Shown here one piece after another: positions 9,111 through 60,590 of a stretch of 64,000 bases of DNA; the first letter of the stretch is position 1, and each line of letters opens with the position of its first letter. A program made the translations under genes and the position numbers. Origin of the DNA: a virus (lineage: Duplodnaviria; Heunggongvirae; Uroviricota; Caudoviricetes); IMG/VR virus record IMGVR_UViG_3300005326_000042, positions 64,001-128,000 of that record, one strand, 5' to 3'. Under the pieces are notes generated by a model. The model searched no databases, had not been told where the DNA came from, and saw only the letters and a program-made list of their open reading frames with translations.

Positions 9111-9389
9111 CTACTCCTCTAAACATCCAGTTTTTATTTCCTTCTCAAAATGTTGTTCAATAAATTGGAAATACTCGTCAAAACCGATCATTCCTTGACT
9201 CCTCATAATCTGAAGGCTTAAGATATATTGTAAATCCTCCATAGTCTTTACGTCCATGTCTGCCAGATTAAGCAGAGTGGATCTACCCTCAAAAATCGTA
9301 TCTTTTATGACCCAAAAATTTGGATTGTGGTTATCGATTACGATTTGATGAGTATTAATTATTGGAACTTCTGAACCCATGTTAATCAC
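9111..9389 (-). CDS. Hypothetical protein
   Basis: GAGGTGA RBS. Confidence 0.55.
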   Translation of the reverse strand: MINMGSEVPIINTHQIVIDNHNPNFWVIKDTIFEGRSTLLNLADMDVKTMEDLQYILSLQIMRSQGMIGFDEYFQFIEQHFEKEIKTGCLEE

Positions 9390-9724
9390 CTCAAATGTTT
9401 CTCTCCTTTATTTTCAATTTCTAAATTGATTTCCAGTTCATCAATCAACTTTTCCATCAATTCCCCAGCAGTCACCATCTCGGGGAATACACTATCTTTC
9501 ATTCTCTCCGCTAGGTTGCGAAGGGGTTGGGTTAAAGATTCTTCGGGCATTTTAATCAACCTCGTAACCCTCTTCCTTCAGGACATCATAAAAGTCTTTG
9601 GTAACTATCTCATTCATTTTAACTCCACGCGCCTTTATTAAGGCTAGGAGATGATTCTCTTCATCTCCGAATTCTTCTAAAAGCATTCCGTATGTTCTCA
9701 GTATTAACGACTGTATTTTCATTT

Positions 9725-10264
9725 TTAATCACTCTCTGTCCACTCTATTTTATACGTAATCCCCAAATTCTCATCAACCAACTCATCTTTTAGACTCGCC
9801 GCTATAACTTCTCTGTTATAGCTCGCGTGGTTGTCTACCCATTCGTCCTCTATTTCTTCAATCTCTTCCTTATATTTCTCAAGTAATTCCTCAATCTGAG
9901 AGTCATATAACTCATTCTGATCCATTCCTTTTCGGTTGAAGAAGTCTTTTCGGGCTTCCTCGCGGGTTTCTCCGAAGTTGAATTCCAGATCTTCTAATTC
10001 CTTGGTTTCCTCAAATAGATATTCTATTCCAAATGAGGATATTTTATTGTAATTGAAGTCAGGCCCGTAAGAGTTGCCAGCTTGGACCCAATGGACTTTT
10101 GTATAGTATGGATTATCAGGGGAACCTCCCTTTTCTGCCGCTTCGACCATTTTAGGAAAGATATCCAGATTATAAGAACCCGTTTCGTAGGTTTCTGGAT
10201 CGTGGTCATGAATAAATGCTTTTATTACGGATTCTTTGTCTAATGAGATATAAATTGTTTGCAT
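9725..10264 (-). CDS. Hypothetical acidic protein
   Basis: GGGTGA RBS; 179 aa. Confidence 0.65.
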   Translation of the reverse strand: MQTIYISLDKESVIKAFIHDHDPETYETGSYNLDIFPKMVEAAEKGGSPDNPYYTKVHWVQAGNSYGPDFNYNKISSFGIEYLFEETKELEDLEFNFGETREEARKDFFNRKGMDQNELYDSQIEELLEKYKEEIEEIEDEWVDNHASYNREVIAASLKDELVDENLGITYKIEWTESD

Positions 10265-29942: not shown

Positions 29943-29986
29943 TCATTTTTATCTAATTAATTATTTTAAAAACCAAATTATACTAA
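29943..29986 (+). promoter_or_regulatory. Putative late promoter motif
   Basis: TCATTTTTATCTAATTAATTATTTTAAAAACCAAATTATACTAA; variant of the motif at 41550 and 60547. Confidence 0.6.
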
Positions 29987-35421: not shown

Positions 35422-35629
35422 ATTAAACGATTTAATTATCTTTTATGCCGCAGCTATGATCGGATTATGCTCTATCGGCATAGGGAGAATCTGGATTTCT
35501 GTACATACTGGAGATTTAGATCAATTATTGGCTATGATTTTGATGTGTTTTGGGTTTGTTGAGATAATTATGCTGGTTTTGACTGAAATCAATATGTATT
35601 TTGTGGGAAGAAGGAGGTTGAGAGGGTGA
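35408..35629 (+). CDS. Two-TM membrane protein
   Basis: Two hydrophobic helices. Confidence 0.5.
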   Translation: MGMGKLNDLIIFYAAAMIGLCSIGIGRIWISVHTGDLDQLLAMILMCFGFVEIIMLVLTEINMYFVGRRRLRG

Positions 35630-36159
35630 GAGTGGCAGTGGATATCGATTCAGTGATTGCAGACCTTATGGGTTCTCTTATACCTAGATTGAATCAAGAA
35701 TATGATTTAAATCTCAAATATGAAGATATTACAACGTGGGATCACCCCATTTGCGGCCATTCTATAGGTGAGGACATTAAAAGATACCTTGCAGATCCGA
35801 AATTTGTCTTAAATATTGAACCAATTGAGGGTTCTATAGAAGCTGTAAGGCAATTACATAAGAAACACGAGGTGATTGTGGCGACGGGCCGTCCGAATTA
35901 CTGTAAAAGCTCAACTTTACATTGGTTAATTGACAAATATCCACATGATAAAGTTGTCTTTGGTTCAGAAAAGACGGTTCAGAGGTTGGGAGCACAGGTT
36001 CTCGTTGATGATGCGTCCCATTATTTAGACAGATTCCTTAAATCTGGAGGCATAATGGGGATTTTAATGAGCTGTCCTTGGAATCAAAAGTGTAATACTG
36101 GCTTCCGCGCGGCCAATTGGAATAGTATTTTAGAAATAATTGATACTTTGGGTGATTAA
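35626..36159 (+). CDS. 5'(3')-deoxyribonucleotidase, NT5C/HAD family
   Basis: VAVDIDSVIAD motif I, ATGR motif II, K, LVDD motif IV. Confidence 0.88.
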   Translation: MRVAVDIDSVIADLMGSLIPRLNQEYDLNLKYEDITTWDHPICGHSIGEDIKRYLADPKFVLNIEPIEGSIEAVRQLHKKHEVIVATGRPNYCKSSTLHWLIDKYPHDKVVFGSEKTVQRLGAQVLVDDASHYLDRFLKSGGIMGILMSCPWNQKCNTGFRAANWNSILEIIDTLGD

Positions 36160-36769: not shown

Positions 36770-36998
36770 TGTATGATCACTACAGGAAACTATTTATAGG
36801 TTAAGAGATACTGTAATGGATGTACTATTTTGGTGTGATTTAAATGTCTGACGATAACGAATTCTTTTTACTCTGGAAGCGAGACGGCTTCGAGCGATGG
36901 TTCTCAATAAATTTAGGAGAACCTGAGAATGTTGTCTATGCCCTCCTTGGTTTGGGGCTTATAAAGGAGATACCTAATGTGGACGGGGAGATGGAGTA

Positions 36999-37361
36999 AT
37001 GGAATACTCAGTCTACGATTTGGAAACCTGCATCCAGCAGGGAGAAATCCTTGAGAAACAGCTTTTGGAAAATGAGTTTCTAGAAGAAGAAATCCACAAG
37101 TCCCTCGCCCGCCAGGGATTCGGGAAACAGGTCTGGAAGTATGATGTTTGGAAACATGGTGCAGACGCTGATGTGATTGTTGTGTTTTCTCAGAATAAGG
37201 AGTGGTTGGAGAAAGTTAGCTTTGTTACTTATAACGAAGGTTACGATAAGGACAAGGCATATGATGTTGATGGGAAGATATTGGAGTCTCCCAGTGATGC
37301 TTATTTCATGGATTGGAATCCGAAGATGGGAGAACTTAAGATAGTGCCGAAGGTGTTTTAA
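36999..37361 (+). CDS. Hypothetical protein
   Basis: GGAG RBS; 120 aa. Confidence 0.6.
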   Translation: MEYSVYDLETCIQQGEILEKQLLENEFLEEEIHKSLARQGFGKQVWKYDVWKHGADADVIVVFSQNKEWLEKVSFVTYNEGYDKDKAYDVDGKILESPSDAYFMDWNPKMGELKIVPKVF

Positions 37362-38231
37362 ATGAACGAAAAATTTCCTGAAATTGTGACGAATCCTGAG
37401 TTGATTCGAGCTAATATACGATCTGTTGTAGATAAGTGTTTTCCGACTTTTAGATTCCCCTTAAAATTTGGAAGTATGTCTATAACTGACGGCAATGTAG
37501 ATACTATGGATTGCGCTGGAGTAAGAACGGAATTTTCAGAAAAGGACTTGGATAGTAAAACTTTCGTCCAAGATGTTAAAGATGTTTATGAGGTAATGGG
37601 TTGGAACATTGTAGATCGACTGTGGAAAGACTTTATTGGTGAATTAAAACAATGTAAGCCGCGTGGAATGGTTAGATGCCAAGCCGACAGCTTTACTCCT
37701 TGGTCTAAAAGTTCCAATCCTTATATAAATCTCGGATTTCTCTGTGAAGATATAGACGAGGAAGACGAAAACCGAATCAACGGATATAGACTCGATACTT
37801 TTCTGGTGTGTGAGAAAGATTTCTATAAGTTTGTGACGAACTCCATAGTAAAAGAGAAGGTAGATGAAGAAATTACTAAGATCAAGGGAGCATATGAAGC
37901 AGCGGTTTATCTGAAGGGGCATTGTGATGATATCAGGTATTCTTTAAAAACTCGTGAACCAGGGATCTGGGTAATTGGTGTTCCAGATGATATACTACCC
38001 GAAGGTTCTTTAATTGGAATTTGTTCTTATGAACGCAAATCTGGCGTTAATCTCTATGTGGTTGTTGATCGACATTTTGGATCTATATATAAAAAAGATA
38101 ATATTTTAGGAACTCCCATAAATGTCAGAGTTGTTGAAGACGAAAATTCCGTAAAGATTACCGCTTGGCTTAAGATGTTTGTAGACATTGAGGACGCAAA
38201 GGATGTATTTTGTTTGGAGAATGTGATTTAG
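37362..38231 (+). CDS. Diverged paralog of the major capsid protein with a shortened E-loop region
   Basis: Collinear blocks with MCP 43888-44859: R.EF...DL...TF..DV...Y....WNI.D (14/31 ungapped), WS...NP, GY.LDT..V, PG.WVIGV..D...EG, D..FG, P.NV. Confidence 0.8.
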   Translation: MNEKFPEIVTNPELIRANIRSVVDKCFPTFRFPLKFGSMSITDGNVDTMDCAGVRTEFSEKDLDSKTFVQDVKDVYEVMGWNIVDRLWKDFIGELKQCKPRGMVRCQADSFTPWSKSSNPYINLGFLCEDIDEEDENRINGYRLDTFLVCEKDFYKFVTNSIVKEKVDEEITKIKGAYEAAVYLKGHCDDIRYSLKTREPGIWVIGVPDDILPEGSLIGICSYERKSGVNLYVVVDRHFGSIYKKDNILGTPINVRVVEDENSVKITAWLKMFVDIEDAKDVFCLENVI

Positions 38232-38352
38232 TGAACATAAATTTAGAAAAAGTTGGAATTGGAATATTCTTCCAACTTTTAACTTTAGGAGCTATAAAAA
38301 TAATAGAAATTTATTCTCAAGTTGACTTAATTTAACTTTTTGGTGATTATTT

Positions 38353-39381
38353 ATGATGCATCAAGTCTATTCTAGCGAAGCGGCTGAGTATAAAGACCGC
38401 GAGTGGTTGAGGTTTCAGATATGGGAGTTGGGAAAGAGTAAAAAATATTTGGCGAACGAATATAAATTAGGAGAAACAACCATTCGATATTGGTATAATA
38501 AAAAATATAAGTATAATAATTTAAAATATCAAAAATATTATCGCGAGAGCACTAAAACAAGTGAAGAATCCAGAAAAGATTGCCAAATATATTTTATGAA
38601 ATTATATAAAGACAGAAACTGGCTTTTAACACAAATTAATGTTTTTGGAAAGAGTCAAAGGGAAGTTGCAAAAGAATGTGGGGTTGTTGAGTCTGTTATT
38701 ACTTATTGGTATAATGAGAGTAGTAAAGAAAACAGTAGAAAATATCACATAAAATGGCATAATGATAACATTAATGAAATTAAAGATAAAGGAAAAAAGT
38801 ATCGATCAAAAAATAAAAAAATTATAAGTGAAAAAGGAAAACAAAAACATCGAGATATAAAAATTCAAGTTTTTAATATCTTGGGCGGATGTAAGTGTCA
38901 ATTATGTGATGTAACAGATATAGACAAGTTAAATGTAGATCATATAGATGGAACAGGATATGAGGACAAAAGAAATGGATATGAAGGTCCAAAACTATAT
39001 CGTTCTATTGTAAATAGAACGTACCCACGGAGTTTATCTAACCTTAGAGTCCTTTGTTGGAACCATAATCTTGCTAGAACCAGAGAATATTTGGATCTTC
39101 CTCCAGAAAAACAAACTAAAGGACAAAAACATAAAACCAAGCTTTGGAAAGAGGCACTTGAGTTCTTTGGCCCTTGTCCATGTGGAATAACAGAGTTAAA
39201 ATTTTTAACTATATCTCATATTCACAACGATGGGGCAGAACGTAGAAGAAGCGGAGAACCCAAGGCACATGGGCTTCTTGGTCGTTTTCGTCAACTTGGT
39301 TATCCCCAATCTCTCAAAAACGATTACCGTCTAGAATGCGCCAACTGTAACTGTTCTCGCCGCGCGGAGGAAGAAGAATAG
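38353..39381 (+). CDS. Double HNH-like endonuclease with N-terminal HTH repeats
   Basis: CQLC..LNVDHID..LRVLCWNHN plus CPCG..LTISHIHNDG..LECANCNC; paralog of 40634. Confidence 0.8.
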   Translation: MMHQVYSSEAAEYKDREWLRFQIWELGKSKKYLANEYKLGETTIRYWYNKKYKYNNLKYQKYYRESTKTSEESRKDCQIYFMKLYKDRNWLLTQINVFGKSQREVAKECGVVESVITYWYNESSKENSRKYHIKWHNDNINEIKDKGKKYRSKNKKIISEKGKQKHRDIKIQVFNILGGCKCQLCDVTDIDKLNVDHIDGTGYEDKRNGYEGPKLYRSIVNRTYPRSLSNLRVLCWNHNLARTREYLDLPPEKQTKGQKHKTKLWKEALEFFGPCPCGITELKFLTISHIHNDGAERRRSGEPKAHGLLGRFRQLGYPQSLKNDYRLECANCNCSRRAEEEE

Positions 39382-40172
39382 TCTTCCACAAAAGTAAATT
39401 CTCGTCTACTGCGGCTATATCTAATTTCTATTTTTCTCTTTATATTATAAATTGTTGATAGTTCTTTAACTCTGCTTTTTATAATCCAATTTGTTTTATT
39501 TGTGCTTAGATGTTCTTCGTGTAGTAGAACCCAACAGGTGTCTTTATCTTTAATTATGTCGTAATAGTTTCTTTTGTTTATTCTATGACCTTGAGGAATT
39601 TGGAAAATTATAATCTCAAAAATATATATTCTATTCCCAGCGGGCTGTTGACGTTGTTTATAAGAAGTGAGCATTATTGTTTGAAGTTGCGACTGTGGTC
39701 CTATTTCTATTTCTTCTATTTTATTTTTTATTTTATTTATATTGTCTCCTATTTCTGTTATTTTTGAGTTTAGCTGGCTCATTTCTTTAAATATTCTGTT
39801 TCTTTCGTTTTTAATAAGATTTAATCCTTCTATTATTCTTTTATATGATGTTCTATTTATTATTTTTCGTACCATTTCTGTTCTTCTCGGTCTTATCGAT
39901 GGTTTAATGGGTTGGTGAGAGCCGCCAGAGTTTACGATACTTATTTCAAGCCTCGTAGTGTTTATTTCTTTTTCAACTCTCCTTATTGACTTATCTAGTT
40001 CTTGTATTTTTATACCATTTTTGATTATTTCAAACTTTATCTCTTTTACATTTGTTCTATATGCTTCGAGTTCTTTTTGCAACGCATCTTTTGTAAGGTT
40101 TCTCTTTATTATAGTTTCTCTCCATTCTTGATAGGTTCTTTCTGGAATTATGTTGGAGGTATTCTCTTTCAT
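39324..40172 (-). CDS. Hypothetical protein with long coiled coils
   Basis: 282-aa ORF, heptad pattern; lone minus-strand gene. Confidence 0.6.
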   Translation of the reverse strand: MKENTSNIIPERTYQEWRETIIKRNLTKDALQKELEAYRTNVKEIKFEIIKNGIKIQELDKSIRRVEKEINTTRLEISIVNSGGSHQPIKPSIRPRRTEMVRKIINRTSYKRIIEGLNLIKNERNRIFKEMSQLNSKITEIGDNINKIKNKIEEIEIGPQSQLQTIMLTSYKQRQQPAGNRIYIFEIIIFQIPQGHRINKRNYYDIIKDKDTCWVLLHEEHLSTNKTNWIIKSRVKELSTIYNIKRKIEIRYSRSRREFTFVEDYSSSSARREQLQLAHSRR

Positions 40173-40633: not shown

Positions 40634-41545
40634 ATGAGATATCTTATTTGCTGGGTCTTTTATATGGAAGAAATTAAATTTGATTTTGTATTAGCGGATG
40701 TTTTAGCGTTGCCTTTGTATAGGAACAAGGTTTGGTTGCATTACGAGATAGATGTGGAAAAGAAAACTCAAAAACGGGTTGCAAAAGATTTTGGGATAAA
40801 TAAATCGTCTATTTCTTATTGGTATAGTGAGGAAAGGAGAATCCACAGAAAACAATATAATAATACATATAGAGAGGAAAATAAAGAAAAATGTTCGGAA
40901 TACGGTAAACAGTACAGAAGAAACAACATGCAAAGGATTAAGAAGTATAATAAAGAATATCAAAAGGATTATCGTATTAAAAATAGAGATAAAATTAATC
41001 GGCAGGTAAGAGAAATAGTGAAGAATATTAAAATTCAAGCTTTCGAAATTCTAGGTGGATGTAAATGTCAATTATGCGAGGTAACAGATGTAGATGAACT
41101 TACTATAGATCATATTGATTCAACAGGGTATTTAGACAAAAAAGAAGGGTATTCTGATCAAACATTATATTATGCTATTGTTAAAGGAACTTATCCAAAA
41201 GAAAGATTATCGAATTTAAGAGTCCTTTGCTACAATCACAACGATGCGAGGATTAGAGAATATCTAGATCTTCCTTATGAACTACAGACCAAATATCAAA
41301 GAAGCCAAACTAAACTCTGGAAAGAAGCTTTTGACTTCTTTGGAGGATGTCCATGCGGAATTACGGAATTAAAATTCTTAACAGTTTCTCACATTCACAA
41401 CGATGGGGCTGAACGGAGGAGGAATGGAGAACCCGGTGGGTATGGTTTATTAAAAAGATTTAGAAGACTTGGTTGGACCGAATCTTTGAAGAACGATTAT
41501 AGGCTTGAATGTGCGAATTGTAACTGTAAAAAGAAAACATTTTAA
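40634..41545 (+). CDS. Double HNH-like endonuclease (paralog of 38353; start may be 40664)
   Basis: CQLC..LTIDHID..LRVLCYNHN plus CPCG..SHIHNDG..LECANCNC. Confidence 0.8.
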   Translation: MRYLICWVFYMEEIKFDFVLADVLALPLYRNKVWLHYEIDVEKKTQKRVAKDFGINKSSISYWYSEERRIHRKQYNNTYREENKEKCSEYGKQYRRNNMQRIKKYNKEYQKDYRIKNRDKINRQVREIVKNIKIQAFEILGGCKCQLCEVTDVDELTIDHIDSTGYLDKKEGYSDQTLYYAIVKGTYPKERLSNLRVLCYNHNDARIREYLDLPYELQTKYQRSQTKLWKEAFDFFGGCPCGITELKFLTVSHIHNDGAERRRNGEPGGYGLLKRFRRLGWTESLKNDYRLECANCNCKKKTF

Positions 41546-41549
41546 GTAA

Positions 41550-41578
41550 TCATTTTTATTCAATTAACTTTTTTAAAA
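41550..41578 (+). promoter_or_regulatory. Putative late promoter motif (29-nt exact copy at 60547)
   Basis: TCATTTTTATTCAATTAACTTTTTTAAAA upstream of the head operon. Confidence 0.7.
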
Positions 41579-41614: not shown

Positions 41615-43216
41615 ATGCCGTCTGGATTTAGAGCAAATTTTCCAATAAATAATTTAAAATTTGAGTCTTCGGATTCAGGATTAATGGTAGATCTTCTAGC
41701 TATAGGCATAAATACTCCCATGCCTGTTGTTAATCCAGAAACTGGCGACAATCTTTTTAATGAGGATGGAACTCCTAAAACCTTCGCGGCAACGGAACAA
41801 TTATTGAGAGATGCCGTTGAGCATTTTGAAGGTGGAATTCTTAATTTAAATCACACTCCAGTTAAAGTTGGAGACATAAGTTCTGTTTATTTTTCTAACG
41901 GATTCGCTTTAAAAGGTTTGGTAACATGCGATAGAATAGCAGATCATGTTAGAAATAATACATATTCTGGTTTGAGCGCGGAAGGTCAGGTTTTGGGAAA
42001 TCCTACCTCTCCAAATGCGATTCGAGTTACTGCTGTTTCATTTTTAACTGAACTTCCTGGAGCATGTGATAAAGAAATTTGTCACGTAAAAGCTTTTGCT
42101 GGAAGCGATGGTGCGGAAGATGTTGATTTTGAGGCTTCTTGGGAACCCGCATACGAAAAATACTGGTCATATATAATAGACCAAAATGAGAAAATTAATC
42201 AATCCCGCGCAAAGAAAATATTCCTTCTTCTAGATGGAGATCCCCAGAATAAAGGATCTTGGAAATATCCTTGTGCAGTTATCGGCTCTGATGGCGAACC
42301 TCACGATGATGAAGAGGGCTTAATGGCCGCATACAAAAGGGCCGCGCAGCAAGGCGAAACGGGATTATTTTCTAAGATTAAATCTAGGATGCGCAAGATT
42401 GGTATGGAAATTCCTGATGGATTAAAGGGCTCCAAACCAAAGCTCCAAGTTCAATACGATAAAGAAAACAAGAAGTTTTCTGCATCTGTTTTAGATCCCC
42501 TTACTAATGATATTTTAGAAACTCAAGAAGTGATTGTTGTTGAAAATTCTCCAAATATTAAGGACGGAGTAAACATGCCGAAAAAAGAAGAAAAAGTTGA
42601 AGTAGCGGAGGAAGCTCCGGCCACAGAAAAGGCTATCGAAGCTCCGCCCGCGAAAGCTGAAGTTCCTGTTGTTGAAACCCCAGTAATTCCTGAAAAGAAA
42701 GAGGAACCTGCGGTTAAGACAGAGGAAGTTGAGAAGAAAGAGATTCCTGTTATAAAGCCGGAGATTTTGGAAAACGAAATTCATGAACTTGATCCTTGGG
42801 TTGTAATAAAGTCAACTCTTGGGATTTCCAACATGGATGAGTTTAACCAGATAAAATCTGCTGCTGAGAAACTTCCGTCTCTTGAAAATAAAGTAAAGGA
42901 ACTTTCCAGTTATAAGGCCGAATCTCAGAAGAAATGGATTCGTGAGACGTATTCGCCAGCTATTTGGGACGGTAAAACAAAGATTGGAGATTCTGAAGTT
43001 CCTAAAATAGATGTTGTGTTCGAACAATATCTTAAAGATCCTGCCGCGTTTGTTCAGGAAAATTTTGAAGATTCCATGTCTTTTGCAGCTTCTAAAAAGG
43101 GTGTAAAAATGGCAGGCTCTGCTGTAGAATCTGTTGAGACTGAAAAAACTAGACGAGAAGCGGAAGTTGACGGCGCGGTTAGTCACATCTTCCATAAGAC
43201 AGGAAAAAGACGTTAA
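41615..43216 (+). CDS. Prohead protease/scaffold fusion
   Basis: N-terminal LNLNH...G...GLSAE...AVS protease-like domain; acidic Pro/Glu linker; helical scaffold C-terminus; position upstream of decoration gene and MCP. Confidence 0.75.
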   Translation: MPSGFRANFPINNLKFESSDSGLMVDLLAIGINTPMPVVNPETGDNLFNEDGTPKTFAATEQLLRDAVEHFEGGILNLNHTPVKVGDISSVYFSNGFALKGLVTCDRIADHVRNNTYSGLSAEGQVLGNPTSPNAIRVTAVSFLTELPGACDKEICHVKAFAGSDGAEDVDFEASWEPAYEKYWSYIIDQNEKINQSRAKKIFLLLDGDPQNKGSWKYPCAVIGSDGEPHDDEEGLMAAYKRAAQQGETGLFSKIKSRMRKIGMEIPDGLKGSKPKLQVQYDKENKKFSASVLDPLTNDILETQEVIVVENSPNIKDGVNMPKKEEKVEVAEEAPATEKAIEAPPAKAEVPVVETPVIPEKKEEPAVKTEEVEKKEIPVIKPEILENEIHELDPWVVIKSTLGISNMDEFNQIKSAAEKLPSLENKVKELSSYKAESQKKWIRETYSPAIWDGKTKIGDSEVPKIDVVFEQYLKDPAAFVQENFEDSMSFAASKKGVKMAGSAVESVETEKTRREAEVDGAVSHIFHKTGKRR

Positions 43217-43232
43217 ATTTTGGTGATAATTT

Positions 43233-43877
43233 ATGGCAAACAGATATTCCGTTGAGGCCGTAAAAGGTCGAACAAACTATATGGACGGGCGTGTTTCCGG
43301 CCCCGTAGTTTTAGATGCTTTTGTGGAACAGGGCGCGATTACTGTAACTAACGCAAATACAGTTGAGTACAAAGGTAAGAAGCTTGGAATGAAGTCTCTA
43401 ACTTTTGCCACTGAGTTTAATATCGATACAGTAAACGCTGGAGATCAATTTATGCAGCTTGCTTCAGATAGCGAAGGCACAACTGCATATACCTACGAAG
43501 CACTAAAAGGAAAACCCATTGTAACAGCCATTTCTGGCACTGGAGGAGTTGCAGGAAATCTTCTGACTTACGGAGGCTCTCTTGTAAACGAACCAACAAC
43601 CACGGCTGCTGCGAACACAATTACAGAAAGGGTTTCCGGTCTGTACTATCGTGTTGAGGCTGTAAAATTCTACGCTATGGAATACCATCCTGTAAAGGTT
43701 CTGGTAACTGGTGAGGCCGCAATTGTTCCTGGAGATGCCCTTACTTATGATGTGAGCGCAGATGCTTGGGTTAAGGATGCAGATGGTACTGCCGTAATTT
43801 CATGCCACTATGCAGGATCTGACGCTTTGTATGTCGGAGCACTCTTTGGCCCGCGCTTCGCAGTATCTCAGGCGTAA
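43233..43877 (+). CDS. Head decoration/cement protein
   Basis: Between scaffold and MCP; Gly/Ala/Val beta-rich; AAIVPGDAL motif. Confidence 0.65.
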   Translation: MANRYSVEAVKGRTNYMDGRVSGPVVLDAFVEQGAITVTNANTVEYKGKKLGMKSLTFATEFNIDTVNAGDQFMQLASDSEGTTAYTYEALKGKPIVTAISGTGGVAGNLLTYGGSLVNEPTTTAAANTITERVSGLYYRVEAVKFYAMEYHPVKVLVTGEAAIVPGDALTYDVSADAWVKDADGTAVISCHYAGSDALYVGALFGPRFAVSQA

Positions 43878-43887
43878 GGTGATATAA

Positions 43888-44859
43888 ATGCCACAACCTC
43901 CACATAATGATATTTACTACAACGATCAAGATATAATCTCTAAGATTGTTAGAGAACTTCTGCTTCCTGAACTTCCGATGTTAACCAGAATTCCGTTTAC
44001 TCTGGTGGATCAGAAGACGATAATTGCGAAGAGACAGTCTTATACTGTAGACTCAGATCCCCATAAGAAGTTAGCTTCTAAAGGTGGTACGACTCTTGGT
44101 GCATGGCCTACCGTAACTCTCAGTCAAGATGAGGCCGTAAGCCTAAACACCGCCATGAGAAAGACTAGAGCCGAGTTTACTGTAGATGACCTCGCTCTTG
44201 GAACTTTTGAGAAGGATGTAATGGAATGTTACGCCACTGCTGCATGGAATATCGCTGATGATATAAATGCTTCACTTGTTACAGCTATGATTAGCGGCTA
44301 TGGTGCTCAAACAACCCAATTTGATATTAAGACATCTGGCGTTTGGTCTGGAAACGCAAACCCAATTGGAGATATCAGGGCTATTGCTCAGGATATGAAA
44401 GCCAAGAGGGGCTACAAGTTGGACACCATCATCGTCGAGACTACAAACTATCAGGAAATGTTTGACTTTTTAGAAACGAATGACCTTGATGTCGATTATG
44501 CTAGAAATCAGATTGCTCCAGACAGGAGATTCTACGAGGAAATAACCTACCTTAAAGTCCCTGGCTGCTGGGTGATTGGTGTCACATCAGATACCGGACT
44601 CTCTGAGGGCGCTATTCTCGGTCTTGGAACCTTCAAGGGAACTCCCTGCGTAGAGAACCTTGCCTACTTCGATCCAAAGTTCGGGAACAAAGAAGTTGTC
44701 GAGGGTGACACTCAGGGTATTGGTCCCGCTAACATACCATTGAACGTTAATCCTTACACAATGCCGGATAATAGAACCAGCATGGTCGAAATGTGGATTG
44801 ATAGTGTTCCAAATGTTGGCAATAGTTACGGCGTGTTCTATAAATCTTCCGGTATTTAA
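43888..44859 (+). CDS. Major capsid protein (HK97 fold)
   Basis: 323 aa, position after the decoration gene, WS...NPIGDI and DTIIV P/A-domain motifs; followed by a terminator. Confidence 0.85.
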   Translation: MPQPPHNDIYYNDQDIISKIVRELLLPELPMLTRIPFTLVDQKTIIAKRQSYTVDSDPHKKLASKGGTTLGAWPTVTLSQDEAVSLNTAMRKTRAEFTVDDLALGTFEKDVMECYATAAWNIADDINASLVTAMISGYGAQTTQFDIKTSGVWSGNANPIGDIRAIAQDMKAKRGYKLDTIIVETTNYQEMFDFLETNDLDVDYARNQIAPDRRFYEEITYLKVPGCWVIGVTSDTGLSEGAILGLGTFKGTPCVENLAYFDPKFGNKEVVEGDTQGIGPANIPLNVNPYTMPDNRTSMVEMWIDSVPNVGNSYGVFYKSSGI

Positions 44860-44893: not shown

Positions 44894-45406
44894 ATGAGAG
44901 AATCAAAGAAAGATACTGGGTCTATTTTTACAAAGAAGATAAAAGATACTGAAGAACCAGAGATACAGGATAATCTAGAGGAAGAATCTCCAAAAGCCGA
45001 ACTAGATCTGTCTAAAAAAGCAGATGATTTTTCTAGTCCAGAAAAGAGAGTCGCAAGTACAGAATTATCTGGAACCAATGTCCTAACTCGAACTATTCTC
45101 GTTGATGGTTTTGTAGATGATATAAGGAAAGTTGTCTCTGAACTTTCTCCCGGCGAAATTCCTATTGCCCTTGTAAAGGAAGAAGTTGTTAAGAGGAGAT
45201 ATGGTAGAGCTAGATATTTACTTGTTATTCGAAAGATTCCTGGATCTATAGAAAATGCGGTTATAGTAGAAGCAAAAGGTATCGACGATCTGAACAGGAA
45301 GCTTTCTGAGAAACTGACTACTGAAACTAAGGTTCTGTTGGCTATGTCTCCTGTTAACAAGAGAGATCCGCAGAATATGTATGTTGCAATACTTGTAAAG
45401 GAGTGA
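44894..45406 (+). CDS. Hypothetical protein in the head module
   Basis: GGAGG RBS; acidic disordered N-terminus. Confidence 0.6.
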   Translation: MRESKKDTGSIFTKKIKDTEEPEIQDNLEEESPKAELDLSKKADDFSSPEKRVASTELSGTNVLTRTILVDGFVDDIRKVVSELSPGEIPIALVKEEVVKRRYGRARYLLVIRKIPGSIENAVIVEAKGIDDLNRKLSEKLTTETKVLLAMSPVNKRDPQNMYVAILVKE

Positions 45407-45413
45407 ATCCCAA

Positions 45414-45932
45414 ATGGCCTCTTCCGTTAGTGACTGGGTAAAAGTGTACTGGTCAACCCTAGAAACTCAACTCGACGCGATAGATACAGATCTATTCGAC
45501 GAACTAGCTGCTGAGGCCGTAACTCGTATTGCCGAGTTTGATACTTCTTTTCTTTCTACTTCTGCTATAACCCGCGCACAAGCATTATATGTTTGTGTCG
45601 AGTCGGGTGGATTTTCGAGCGTAGGCGGCTATGCGGCTGAAAGACATTATGATACTCTCAAATTGTTCGATAGAACTTGGAAAAAACAAACAAATTATGA
45701 TATGTGGATAGGTGAACTTTGCAGATTGTTGAGAGTTACACCGAAGGAACTTCTTGCTAAGAGCGCAACTGCTAGAGCATCACTCTACAACAAATACAAG
45801 ATTAATAGCGTGTTCCTAGCCCCAGATTTATCACAAAGAGCCTCGCCGTTTAGGGATTATGAGATGGACGACGTCCGCACTGACCGCAAAGACTACCCAC
45901 TCGATAATAGGTACGGAGATCCAGACGGATGA
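45414..45932 (+). CDS. Putative head-tail adaptor
   Basis: Helical; position after MCP. Confidence 0.5.
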   Translation: MASSVSDWVKVYWSTLETQLDAIDTDLFDELAAEAVTRIAEFDTSFLSTSAITRAQALYVCVESGGFSSVGGYAAERHYDTLKLFDRTWKKQTNYDMWIGELCRLLRVTPKELLAKSATARASLYNKYKINSVFLAPDLSQRASPFRDYEMDDVRTDRKDYPLDNRYGDPDG

Positions 45933-46492
45933 TCGGCTCCGAATCCTACACCGTAACCCGTCCATATTCCTATCTCTATAGCGGAGCTAGTGGAACCAAT
46001 AAAACCCCAACTACAACTCCCCCAACAGGAGGTTGTTGCCTAAGAATAGAAGGTGTCGGAACCGCAGGGACTGTTAAGATTTACGGAACTTACGGTGGAG
46101 TTGTCACAACAGAAACTATCTCCACTTTCGACACCGATAAAGTTGGATTTAGTTATAACAAATGGACTGCAATAACTAAATTTGATATCACAACTTTTAC
46201 TTCTGTTGTTATATATCCTGCATCATCTAGCGGAGAGAAAATTCGACTGTCAACATCATCAACATTTGTCTTGATGTGCGATTCTTATGACATAAATGAA
46301 ACTCAATTCCGTGGAGAATATATAGAATATGGTGGAAAGACGTATAAGACTTACAAAGCCATACAATATGATGACAGATTTACTTTACAGTTTGATGATA
46401 AAGTTACGATTGATGGGATAGATTATAGGATTGTGTCGATTAAGTCAGACCGAAAAGGTGGGAAGCTCGCGTTTGGAGTGGTGTGGCGATGA
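45929..46492 (+). CDS. Putative head closure/head-tail joining protein
   Basis: C-terminal DKVTIDGIDYRIVSI motif typical of SPP1 gp16-like proteins. Confidence 0.55.
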   Translation: MIGSESYTVTRPYSYLYSGASGTNKTPTTTPPTGGCCLRIEGVGTAGTVKIYGTYGGVVTTETISTFDTDKVGFSYNKWTAITKFDITTFTSVVIYPASSSGEKIRLSTSSTFVLMCDSYDINETQFRGEYIEYGGKTYKTYKAIQYDDRFTLQFDDKVTIDGIDYRIVSIKSDRKGGKLAFGVVWR

Positions 46493-46881
46493 CTGAAAGC
46501 GTCGAAGAAGCCGCACAACAGATTTTCAGATGGGGCCTCCAGAGATGGCAGGAAACGGTTGCTGAAATTAAAGTCATGTCTGCCGAGGCGGAAGAAAATA
46601 TGAAAAATGGTGCTCCTGGTCCGGATTCTGGCACTCTAGATTCCGCTATTAAATCTGAAGATGAAGGAATGGGCCTTTGGAAATGGGGCGTAAAAACTTA
46701 CATTGAAGACATTCCAAATCCTATAACCGGATGGTCTGCTGCTTATTACGGAATGCTTTGGGAAAACGGCCACTTTAATTTCTATACAAAGAGATCCGAG
46801 CCTCCATTATATTACATGTCTGGTGGAGCTGAGGAAGCATATATGCATTTTATTTCTAGAATGGCTGGGTTGTGGGTGTAA
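46489..46881 (+). CDS. HK97-gp10-like tail component
   Basis: APGPDSGTLDSAI...Y...WE.GH pattern; position. Confidence 0.6.
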   Translation: MTESVEEAAQQIFRWGLQRWQETVAEIKVMSAEAEENMKNGAPGPDSGTLDSAIKSEDEGMGLWKWGVKTYIEDIPNPITGWSAAYYGMLWENGHFNFYTKRSEPPLYYMSGGAEEAYMHFISRMAGLWV

Positions 46882-47307
46882 ATGGCTTATTTGAATCCAT
46901 TAAGTACAATCGTAAAAACAATGAGGTCGGACGCAACTCTTATCGCTTTACTTCCTGCTTCAAAAATACACTCAAATTATATTCCAGATGAACCAAACCT
47001 TCCAGGAGTTTTTGTTACTCCCTTGAGAGTTCCCTTAAAGCAAATAATAGCTTCCGCTCATCAACCAGAACAAATACTTACTGGTACTGGAACTTGGCAA
47101 ATTGATGCGCTATCTGAGGAAAGTACAGAAAAGGCAGAAGAGATTGGTTTAAGGGCTTGCGAAGCTTGTTTACCTTCTATTCCAACCGCTGGTTTATTTG
47201 CTTTAGACTTTACTCAGTATAGCGTGTCGTTTGACAAGAGTTATGGGTGTTATAGAGCTATATATCGCTTAACTGCAAGATATATGGAATTAATTACAGG
47301 AACTTGA
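46882..47307 (+). CDS. Tail terminator/completion protein
   Basis: LI.LLP..KIH....P..P.LP; WQIDALS...AEEI pattern; position. Confidence 0.65.
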   Translation: MAYLNPLSTIVKTMRSDATLIALLPASKIHSNYIPDEPNLPGVFVTPLRVPLKQIIASAHQPEQILTGTGTWQIDALSEESTEKAEEIGLRACEACLPSIPTAGLFALDFTQYSVSFDKSYGCYRAIYRLTARYMELITGT

Positions 47308-47315
47308 ATTTATAT

Positions 47316-47360
47316 TTTTATATAATTAATTTTTTTAAATTAGTCTATTTATATTAATCC
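47316..47360 (+). promoter_or_regulatory. Putative late promoter motif upstream of the tape measure gene
   Basis: TTTTTATATAATTAATTTTTTTAAAT variant. Confidence 0.5.
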
Positions 47361-60546: not shown

Positions 60547-60590
60547 TCATTTTTATTCAATTAACTTTTTTAAAAAGCAAATTATATTTA
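60547..60590 (+). promoter_or_regulatory. Putative late promoter motif
   Basis: 29-nt exact match to 41550-41578. Confidence 0.7.

What the first reader, a model, noticed from the sequence alone, without database searches (positions are those of the whole stretch)
37362..38231. A second, diverged major-capsid-protein paralog hidden among non-structural genes
Seen: the 289-aa ORF aligns collinearly with the MCP at 43888. RTEFSEKDLDSKTFVQDVKDVYEVMGWNIVD vs RAEFTVDDLALGTFEKDVMECYATAAWNIAD is 14/31 identical without gaps. Other matching blocks are WSKSSNP/WSGNANP, GYRLDTFLV/GYKLDTIIV, PGIWVIGVPDD..PEG/PGCWVIGVTSD...SEG and DRHFG/DPKFG. The segment expected to form the E-loop is about 37 aa shorter (26 vs 63 aa). 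The gene lies 5.6 kb upstream of the head operon, with no late-promoter motif. Inference: it may be a vertex/penton protein (T4 gp24 analogy), a capsid-size modulator, an assembly-poisoning factor against co-infecting relatives, or a decoy for capsid-sensing immunity.
Basis: partly seen in the sequence, partly recalled or inferred. Interest (0 to 1): 0.78.

Follow-up and report, generated by a model that had tools for sequence, protein, structure and literature searches.

The report
Dispensable second capsid-protein paralogue
A 148-kb, probably archaeal, tailed virus carries an intact but very diverged extra copy of its own shell-protein gene, and related viruses lose, replace or swap this copy freely, so it is an optional accessory protein and not a fixed building block like the corner protein of phage T4.

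Summary
ORF 37362-38231 (289 aa) is a true paralogue of the 323-aa major capsid protein (MCP) at 43888: BLASTP E 2e-16, z 26.8 against shuffles. Its AlphaFold2 model (pLDDT 78) has an HK97 fold. The E-loop region is 36 aa shorter than in the MCP.

Paralogues and MCPs form two clades (100/100 support), so the duplication is old. The gene is under purifying selection (dN/dS 0.10-0.27).

It behaves as an accessory gene:
- It has its own small unit with an ordinary TATA-type promoter and lies outside the four operons that carry the 25-nt late motif.
- It sits in variable slots on either side of the core head block, next to mobile HNH genes.
- It is absent from a complete relative and cleanly replaced by an HNH gene in another.
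- It is only 36% identical between viruses whose MCPs are 84% identical.
- Its E-loop length varies (42-75 aa against a fixed 78 in MCPs).

An obligatory T4 gp24-type vertex role and a capsid-size role are disfavoured. My best guess (0.4) is a facultative minor shell subunit. The main rival (0.3) is an interference or decoy role. No expression or virion data could be obtained.

This scan has noted dual-MCP phages before on other DNA, but those pairs were read as conserved hexon/penton pairs, most of them adjacent.

The parts
36786..36800 (+). Candidate BRE/TATA-type promoter GAAACTATTTATAGG of the three-gene unit
   Evidence: Read from the sequence. It resembles the AAACTTTAAATA boxes before 26077, 32931 and 36380. 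It is not the late motif. Promoter function is inferred, not shown.
36844..36999 (+). 51-aa ORF, first gene of the unit, no known family
   Evidence: Its stop overlaps the next start. No relatives were found in the fetched loci.
36999..37361 (+). 120-aa acidic ORF, abuts the paralogue with no gap, no known family
37362..38231 (+). MCP paralogue P0001, 289 aa, HK97 fold with a short E-loop (residues 34-59) and a private insertion (187-199)
38249..38286 (+). Hairpin followed by a T-run, possible end of the unit
   Evidence: Fold -12.7 kcal/mol, z -2.2. Weak support; the consensus terminator scan did not report it.
38353..39381 (+). HTH plus tandem HNH-type nuclease gene (mobile family, many copies in the genome)
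   Evidence: Relatives carry copies at other places.
40634..41545 (+). Second copy of the same HNH-type nuclease family
41554..41578 (+). 25-nt late-type motif before the head operon
   Evidence: four matches in the window against 0.01 expected. In relatives the same motif lies directly after the paralogue.
41615..43216 (+). 533-aa first head gene. Protease-scaffold fusion is my reading of the sequence only.
   Evidence: Conserved in all relatives. No Pfam or PHROG hit.
43233..43877 (+). 214-aa head gene between scaffold-like gene and MCP (the position of lambda gpD; inference)
   Evidence: Duplicated in tandem in L004.
43888..44859 (+). Major capsid protein P0002, 323 aa
45929..46492 (+). 187-aa neck-region gene. 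In L018, L004 and L021 its orthologue directly follows the paralogue.

Best explanation
The gene encodes an intact HK97-fold protein that comes from an old duplication of this virus lineage's own MCP. It has become an optional accessory gene. It is transcribed from its own ordinary TATA-type promoter and not from the late-motif operons. It sits in variable slots at either edge of the core head block. It keeps the MCP-like N-arm, spine helix, A-domain and P-domain, while the E-loop is free to shrink.

Most likely mechanism (inferred): the N-arm, its best-conserved part, lets the same scaffold recruit it. It then joins the MCP lattice as a facultative minor shell subunit. A fivefold vertex is the most plausible site, because only one environment has to be satisfied there. 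The MCP can build complete capsids without it.

Shown here: paralogy, fold, purifying selection, dispensability, allele exchange and separate promoter type. Inferred: recruitment by the scaffold, incorporation into the shell and the site of incorporation.
For: - Paralogy and fold.
- Paralogues and MCPs are two clades with 100/100 support, so there was one old duplication and no recent capture from an unrelated virus.
- Purifying selection: dN/dS is 0.27 and 0.10 for the two parts of the L034/L021 pair. MCP values are 0.04-0.08 and the neighbouring 188-aa structural gene gives 0.13-0.23.
- Position: in the three loci that show both genes (window, L018, L004, L021) it lies within about 7 kb of the MCP and on the same strand. 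In the window, L032 and probably L030 it is upstream of the first head gene. In L018, L004 and L021 it is directly upstream of the 188-aa neck-region gene.
- The N-arm is the best-conserved region of the paralogue clade (60% mean pairwise identity; 47% for P0001 against the others) and keeps the MCP-like pattern.
- The only demonstrated role of a second MCP paralogue in tailed viruses is penton formation: T4 gp24 (PMC3012670) and Jabs MCPp (bioRxiv 10.64898/2026.07.24.740622). T4 gp24 can be bypassed by gp23 mutations (PMC3012670), so dispensability is compatible with a vertex site.
Against: - The gene is not behind the late motif that precedes every structural operon. In relatives it sits at the end of a unit led by a small RHH-like gene with an ordinary TATA box, and the late motif begins right after its stop.
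- It is absent from complete genome G001 and from G002, whose MCPs are 90% and 96% identical to that of paralogue-bearing L021. In L009 an HNH/Zn-ribbon gene replaces it exactly.
- Paralogue divergence does not track MCP divergence. For L018-L021 the MCPs are 84% identical and the paralogues 36%; for L004-L018 the values are 45% and 41%. This gives no sign of co-adaptation with a lattice partner.
- E-loop length varies from 42 to 75 residues, against an invariant 78 in 15 MCPs. That is unexpected for a subunit locked into a lattice.
- There are no virion, expression or assembly data.
Confidence: 0.4

Rival explanations
1. Conflict protein that is not part of the virion. An MCP look-alike is expressed on its own schedule and binds what normally binds or senses MCP. 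It could poison capsid assembly of co-infecting related viruses (dominant-negative subunit), or it could soak up a host sensor of capsid protein (decoy).
For: - It has its own ordinary promoter, led by an RHH-like gene in relatives, outside the late operons.
- It lies in a variable island with mobile HNH cassettes, and presence or absence differs among near-identical backbones.
- Whole-allele swaps occur between flanks that are 94-99% identical, with only the first 57 and last 66 nt of the gene conserved.
- Paralogue divergence is unrelated to MCP divergence, and the E-loop, the lattice-locking element, is dispensable.
- The same island in L018 and L009 holds a second shortened copy of a morphogenesis gene: a 261-287-aa protein related only to the N-terminal ATPase part of the large terminase.
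Against: - To my knowledge no MCP-derived decoy or poison has been demonstrated in any virus.
- dN/dS is below 0.3, which shows no sign of positive selection in the one pair that could be measured.
- A poison would also need the virus's own MCP to be immune, yet no co-variation with the MCP is seen.
- The terminase-like short gene does not strictly co-occur with the paralogue.
Confidence: 0.3
2. Obligatory, dedicated penton protein of the T4 gp24 or Jabs MCPp type. The MCP forms hexons only and the paralogue forms the eleven non-portal vertices.
For: - It is an HK97-fold paralogue of the MCP in the same genome.
- There is precedent in PMC3012670 and bioRxiv 10.64898/2026.07.24.740622.
Against: - A complete relative lacks it while its MCP is 90% identical to that of a carrier.
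- It is replaced by an HNH gene in L009.
- It is not adjacent to the MCP and is not late-motif driven.
- The A-domain is not reduced, unlike Jabs MCPp.
- E-loop length is unconstrained.
Confidence: 0.08
3. The paralogue forms a separate, portal-less, encapsulin-like shell in the infected cell, perhaps enclosing a product of the co-transcribed small genes.
For: - The protein is compact, has a short E-loop and an N-terminal helix.
- It is co-transcribed with two small ORFs.
Against: - It has no Pfam encapsulin match.
- The ESM Atlas neighbours are viral capsid clusters.
- The N-helix pattern is shared with the virus's own MCP.
- The upstream partner genes are not conserved among lineages (RHH-like 81 aa, or 86/87/94 aa, or 51/120 aa).
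- Other clade members have long E-loops.
Confidence: 0.07
4. Decaying duplicate or recombination leftover with no function.
For: - P0001 has the longest branch in the family (1.8 substitutions per site) and has lost several family motifs, for example NIPLNVN to GTPINVRV.
- One relative (L034) has a frameshift at a T-run.
- The gene is frequently lost.
Against: - Intact full-length ORFs occur in at least seven lineages.
- dN/dS is 0.10-0.27.
- The model folds confidently.
- The gene is tightly coupled to upstream genes, with its own promoter-like box.
Confidence: 0.05

Closest known systems
Bacteriophage T4 gp23 (hexons) and gp24 (vertex pentons)
   Different: - In T4 gene 24 lies next to gene 23, as I recall. 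Here the gene is 5.6 kb away, in its own unit without the late motif.
- It is present or absent among viruses with 90-96% identical MCPs.
- It is exchanged as a cassette and has an E-loop of unconstrained length.
Mycobacterium abscessus siphophage Jabs MCPh (ORF72) and MCPp (ORF73), bioRxiv 10.64898/2026.07.24.740622
   Same: A short MCP paralogue (257 aa, 18% identical to the hexon protein) with a canonical HK97 fold.
   Different: - Jabs MCPp is encoded by the neighbouring ORF (ORF73 next to ORF72), has a reduced axial domain, and its E-loop tip makes a defined contact with hexons.
- Here the A-domain is not reduced (it even has a private 13-residue insertion), the E-loop is the variable part, and the gene is optional.
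Ekchuahviridae (ANME-1 head-tailed viruses GBV301/GBV302) with two HK97 MCPs, PMC9894754
   Same: Archaeal-type tailed viruses with two divergent MCP genes of unknown division of labour. The paper calls this unusual among Caudoviricetes.
   Different: - There each MCP has its own maturation protease, and MCP-2 appears to have been acquired from another virus group.
- Here there is no second protease. The paralogue clade is sister to the lineage's own MCP clade, so it arose by duplication.
Family 1 encapsulins (for example M. xanthus EncA, T. maritima encapsulin)
   Different: - There is no sequence-family match.
- It is viral, is a paralogue of a working MCP, and has no conserved cargo gene.
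- The Z margin over phage MCPs is only 1-2 units.

Membership tests
HK97-fold capsid protein superfamily | HK97 fold: N-arm, E-loop, spine helix, P-domain and A-domain | tested here: met
Paralogue of this virus's own MCP | Significant collinear sequence similarity to the MCP of the same genome | tested here: met
   BLASTP E 2e-16. z = 26.8 against 1000 shuffles. The paralogue profile finds the MCPs of five relatives at E 1e-33 to 1e-39.
Dedicated penton protein (T4 gp24 / Jabs MCPp type) | Located at the fivefold vertices of the virion as homopentamers | not testable with these tools
   This needs virion proteomics or cryo-EM. The virus is known only from metagenomes.
Dedicated penton protein (T4 gp24 / Jabs MCPp type) | Gene adjacent to the MCP gene and co-regulated with it | tested here: not met
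   It is 5.6 kb upstream and has its own TATA-like box. The late motif is found only at 29947, 41554, 47316 and 60551. In relatives it is also separated from the MCP and preceded by an ordinary promoter.
Dedicated penton protein (T4 gp24 / Jabs MCPp type) | Kept together with the MCP throughout the lineage | tested here: not met
   It is absent from complete G001 and from G002, G003 (downstream side) and L009. The MCPs of carriers and non-carriers are up to 96% identical.
Encapsulin (family 1) | Match to the encapsulin sequence family (Pfam Linocin_M18 or related) | tested here: not met
   No Pfam family at E up to 1. No PDB sequence match at E up to 10 with the family profile.
Encapsulin (family 1) | Conserved adjacent cargo gene with a targeting peptide | tested here: not met
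   The upstream genes differ between lineages and are unrelated to each other.
Ekchuahvirus-type dual MCP module | Second MCP accompanied by its own maturation protease | tested here: not met
   The neighbours are 51-aa and 120-aa ORFs and HNH genes with no protease signature. PF04586 has no match anywhere in the genome, so this test is weak.

The most novel reading that the evidence does not exclude
The paralogue, together with the shortened terminase-ATPase-like gene in the same variable island of related viruses, is a purpose-kept look-alike of a morphogenesis protein. It would be used as a weapon or shield: a dominant-negative subunit that wrecks capsid assembly or packaging of competing related viruses, or a decoy for host immune sensors that recognise capsid and terminase proteins. 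It would be exchanged between viruses as a cassette behind an RHH-regulated promoter.
Probability: 0.2. Interest if true: 0.85.

Novelty: new variant of a known kind. Interest (0 to 1): 0.55.

Why it matters
Second MCP genes in tailed viruses are rare. So far they are explained by one model: a fixed hexon/penton division of labour, as in T4 and Jabs. Here an anciently duplicated MCP paralogue is kept under selection but behaves like a mobile accessory gene. It is optional, swapped as a cassette, separately transcribed and relaxed in its lattice-locking loop.

If it is a facultative shell subunit, capsid composition can vary between near-identical viruses. If it is not in the virion, it would be the first capsid-fold protein recruited to another task inside a virus genome. 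That would bear on how encapsulins and other HK97-fold offshoots arise.

The lineage offers natural with/without pairs (L021 against L006 or G001, and L021 against L009) for a direct test.

Tried and rejected
- **Database searches:** Pfam, PHROG and PDB-sequence searches of P0001 gave nothing useful. A tblastn of the MCP against GenBank phages found no match. A word-indexed protein search with P0001 found only itself; the exhaustive search was needed to find relatives.
- **MCP model:** the AlphaFold2 model built from 15 close orthologues failed (pLDDT 42).
- **Self-assembly test:** Complex prediction with three copies of P0001 returned 'no answer' (score 0.00, controls not run). This is no evidence either way.
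- **Other head genes:** searches of the genome for Pfam terminase (PF03237) and prohead protease (PF04586) found nothing. The large terminase was found by PHROG instead.
- **Upstream partner:** I looked for a conserved upstream partner of the paralogue. The 81-aa RHH-like gene of relatives has no counterpart in this genome, and the 51-aa and 120-aa ORFs have no relatives in the fetched loci.
- **Co-evolution with the MCP:** I considered this after seeing both the MCP block and the paralogue body swapped between L004 and L018. I rejected it, because across four genomes paralogue identity is unrelated to MCP identity.

Full report
**What the window is.** The window is bases 64001-128000 of a 147,773-bp IMG/VR virus record with direct terminal repeats, rated complete. 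G+C is low (27-44%). Genes are preceded by TATA-type boxes about 25-30 nt upstream and by GGTGAT ribosome-binding sites. Earlier notes of this scan call it a probable virus of a methanogenic archaeon. I did not test the host.

**The head region.** It reads, in order:
- a 533-aa gene (41615), which looks like a protease-scaffold fusion from its sequence only;
- a 214-aa gene (43233);
- the 323-aa MCP P0002 (43888);
- small neck-type genes (44894-47307);
- a 1939-aa tape-measure-like gene (47381).

The large terminase lies outside the window at genome 130183-131904 (phrog_38, E 1e-27).

- ORF 37362-38231 gives the 289-aa protein P0001.
- BLASTP against P0002 gives E 2e-16, 23% identity over 243 collinear residues.
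- The Smith-Waterman score is 168, against 34 +/- 5 in 1000 shuffles (z 26.8).
- The E-loop is short. The model has strands 34-37 and 54-59 before the spine helix 68-96. The distance from the conserved Phe/Leu anchor to the spine-helix Tyr is 42 residues, against 78 in the MCP.

**Relatives and history.** The exhaustive protein search found a small family: P0020-P0025, and later P0027. These proteins share P0001's N-terminus (FPEIxTNPE...) and C-terminus (FYLE[DN]VI).
- In a maximum-likelihood tree the seven paralogues and the fifteen MCP orthologues form two clades with 100/100 support. P0001 is the longest branch, at 1.8.
- The duplication is therefore old. It predates the split of the two MCP subclades, which are about 45% identical.
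- The gene is under purifying selection where that can be measured. For L034 against L021, dN/dS is 0.27 (N part) and 0.10 (C part). MCP values are 0.04-0.08, and the neighbouring 188-aa structural gene gives 0.13-0.23.

**Where the gene sits.**
- In L018 (a 138-kb contig), L004 and L021 the paralogue lies downstream of the MCP, at the end of a variable island. That island also holds a metacaspase cassette, other small genes and HNH nuclease genes. The orthologue of window gene 45929 follows directly.
- In L032 it lies directly upstream of the first head gene. L030 shares the window's upstream HNH gene but does not reach a head gene.
- The window has the L032 arrangement plus two inserted HNH-type nuclease genes (38353 and 40634).
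- The gene is therefore always at an edge of the core head block, and 'among non-structural genes' is only superficially true.

**Regulation.** A 25-nt motif (TTTTATYYAATTAAYTWTTTTAAAA) occurs four times in the window against 0.01 expected. The sites are 29947, 41554, 47316 and 60551, each before a structural operon.
- The paralogue is not behind one. It is the third gene of a tight unit (51-aa ORF, 120-aa ORF, paralogue). The unit is preceded by GAAACTATTTATAGG (36786-36800), a variant of the ordinary AAACTTTAAATA boxes. A modest hairpin with a T-run follows it.
- In relatives the unit starts with a conserved 81-aa gene. From its sequence pattern I read that gene as ribbon-helix-helix-like; it has no Pfam or PHROG hit. 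It sits behind an ordinary TATA box, and the late motif begins right at the paralogue's stop codon.
- Function of these motifs is inferred.

**The gene is optional and exchangeable.**
- A profile of the paralogue clade finds only the MCP in G001 (145 kb, terminal repeats, complete) and in G002. Their MCPs are 90% and 96% identical to that of paralogue-bearing L021.
- Between L021 and L006 the whole island is missing (L021 6734-11399). Between L021 and L009 homology breaks inside the RHH-like gene and resumes exactly at the late motif. L009 has a 365-aa HNH/Zn-ribbon gene in place of the paralogue.
- L004 and L018 are 94-99% identical in DNA on both sides, including the first 57 and last 66 nt of the paralogue. 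The body of the gene is unalignable (41% protein identity).
- Paralogue identity does not follow MCP identity. For L018-L021 the MCPs are 84% identical and the paralogues 36%. For L004-L018 the values are 45% and 41%.
- Within the clade the N-arm is the best-conserved part (60%) and the E-loop the worst (27%). The anchor-to-spine length ranges over 42, 42, 49, 59, 69, 72 and 75 residues, against an invariant 78 in fifteen MCPs.

**Interpretation.** The fold, the purifying selection and the conserved MCP-like N-arm say the protein still works as a capsid-type subunit. The position at the head block is consistent with a head-related task.

The accessory behaviour rules out a fixed hexon/penton division of labour like T4 gp23/gp24 or Jabs MCPh/MCPp. 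An MCP that is 90-96% identical builds capsids without the paralogue. A capsid-size role is unlikely, because genomes with and without the gene are equally long.

- My best reading (0.4) is a facultative minor shell subunit, most plausibly at the vertices. T4 shows that a vertex paralogue can be bypassed (PMC3012670).
- The main rival (0.3) is a non-virion conflict role, as a poison of competitors' assembly or a decoy for capsid sensors. Several features fit this rival at least as well: the separate ordinary promoter, the island context, the cassette exchange and the unconstrained E-loop. So does a second shortened morphogenesis paralogue in the same island of relatives, a 261-287-aa terminase-ATPase-like protein. 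This rival has no precedent that I know of, and the one measurable pair shows no positive selection.
- An encapsulin-like separate shell (0.07) is suggested only by slightly higher structural scores. It lacks a conserved cargo gene.
- Decay (0.05) is contradicted by selection and by intact genes in seven lineages.

**Comparison with what is known.** Laso-Perez et al. (PMC9894754) describe two MCPs in ekchuahviruses, each with its own protease, and call dual MCPs unusual in Caudoviricetes. Here there is no second protease, and the origin is duplication within the lineage. This scan has reported dual-MCP phages before on other DNA. Those pairs were read as conserved hexon/penton pairs, most of them side by side. 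The present case differs in being dispensable, exchangeable and separately transcribed. I rate it a new variant of a known kind, with moderate interest.

**Limits.**
- The MCP's own model failed.
- The homo-oligomer prediction gave no answer.
- No expression or virion data exist.
- P0001 has no close allele, so selection on this particular copy is unmeasured.
- The host assignment is untested.

Noticed in passing
window 29947-29971, 41554-41578, 47316-47340, 60551-60575: A 25-nt AT-rich motif (TTTTATYYAATTAAYTWTTTTAAAA) precedes four structural operons. It occurs 4 times against 0.01 expected. Related viruses have the same motif (TTTATTTAATTCAYTTTTTTAAAA) before the corresponding operons. It is probably a late-promoter element.
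   Followed up: partly
L009:6570-7355 and L018:7236-8099: The variable island of related viruses encodes a 261-287-aa protein homologous only to the N-terminal ATPase part of the large terminase (phrog_38 E 6e-9 and 2e-4; BLASTP to this genome's TerL 3e-11 and 2e-13). It is a second shortened morphogenesis paralogue, driven by a late motif. This genome has no such copy.
   Followed up: partly
L018:9753-9998, L004:15928-16173, L021:9572-9811, L034:1061-1303, L019:58-300, L009:8923-9093: An 81-aa RHH-like gene (MPTVYLDDRA...) behind a TATA box leads the paralogue unit. It is 71-98% identical between viruses whose paralogues are only 36-41% identical. In L009 a shortened copy leads an HNH/Zn-ribbon gene instead. 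It has no Pfam or PHROG hit.
   Followed up: partly
L004:7000-11500 compared with L018:1-3800: These two viruses are otherwise 94-99% identical. They differ by a swapped block covering the C-terminal part of the scaffold-like gene, the 213-aa gene, the MCP and part of the next gene (MCPs 45% identical). This indicates mosaic exchange of the head core.
   Followed up: partly
L004:8685-9317 and 9330-9983: Tandem duplication of the 214-aa gene that lies between the scaffold-like gene and the MCP. Both copies are 69% identical to window 43233-43877.
   Followed up: no
L034:1309-2315: The paralogue is split by a frameshift at a T-run (GAAAATTTTTTAAGG). It could be an assembly error, a real pseudogene or a slippery site. 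It is a single contig.
   Followed up: partly
L031:289-1191 (P0026): This 300-aa member of the MCP clade, sister to P0016, also has a truncated E-loop region (43 against 78 residues), a private 32-residue insertion and a long branch. The contig is too short to tell whether it is a sole MCP or another secondary copy.
   Followed up: no
window 39324-40172, minus strand: A 282-aa antisense ORF with a coiled-coil-like, lysine/isoleucine-rich sequence lies between the two HNH genes and overlaps the end of the first. It may be spurious.
   Followed up: no
window 35626-36159: A virus-encoded NT5C-type 5'(3')-deoxyribonucleotidase (Pfam PF06941, E 4e-25) lies 1.2 kb upstream of the paralogue unit.
   Followed up: no
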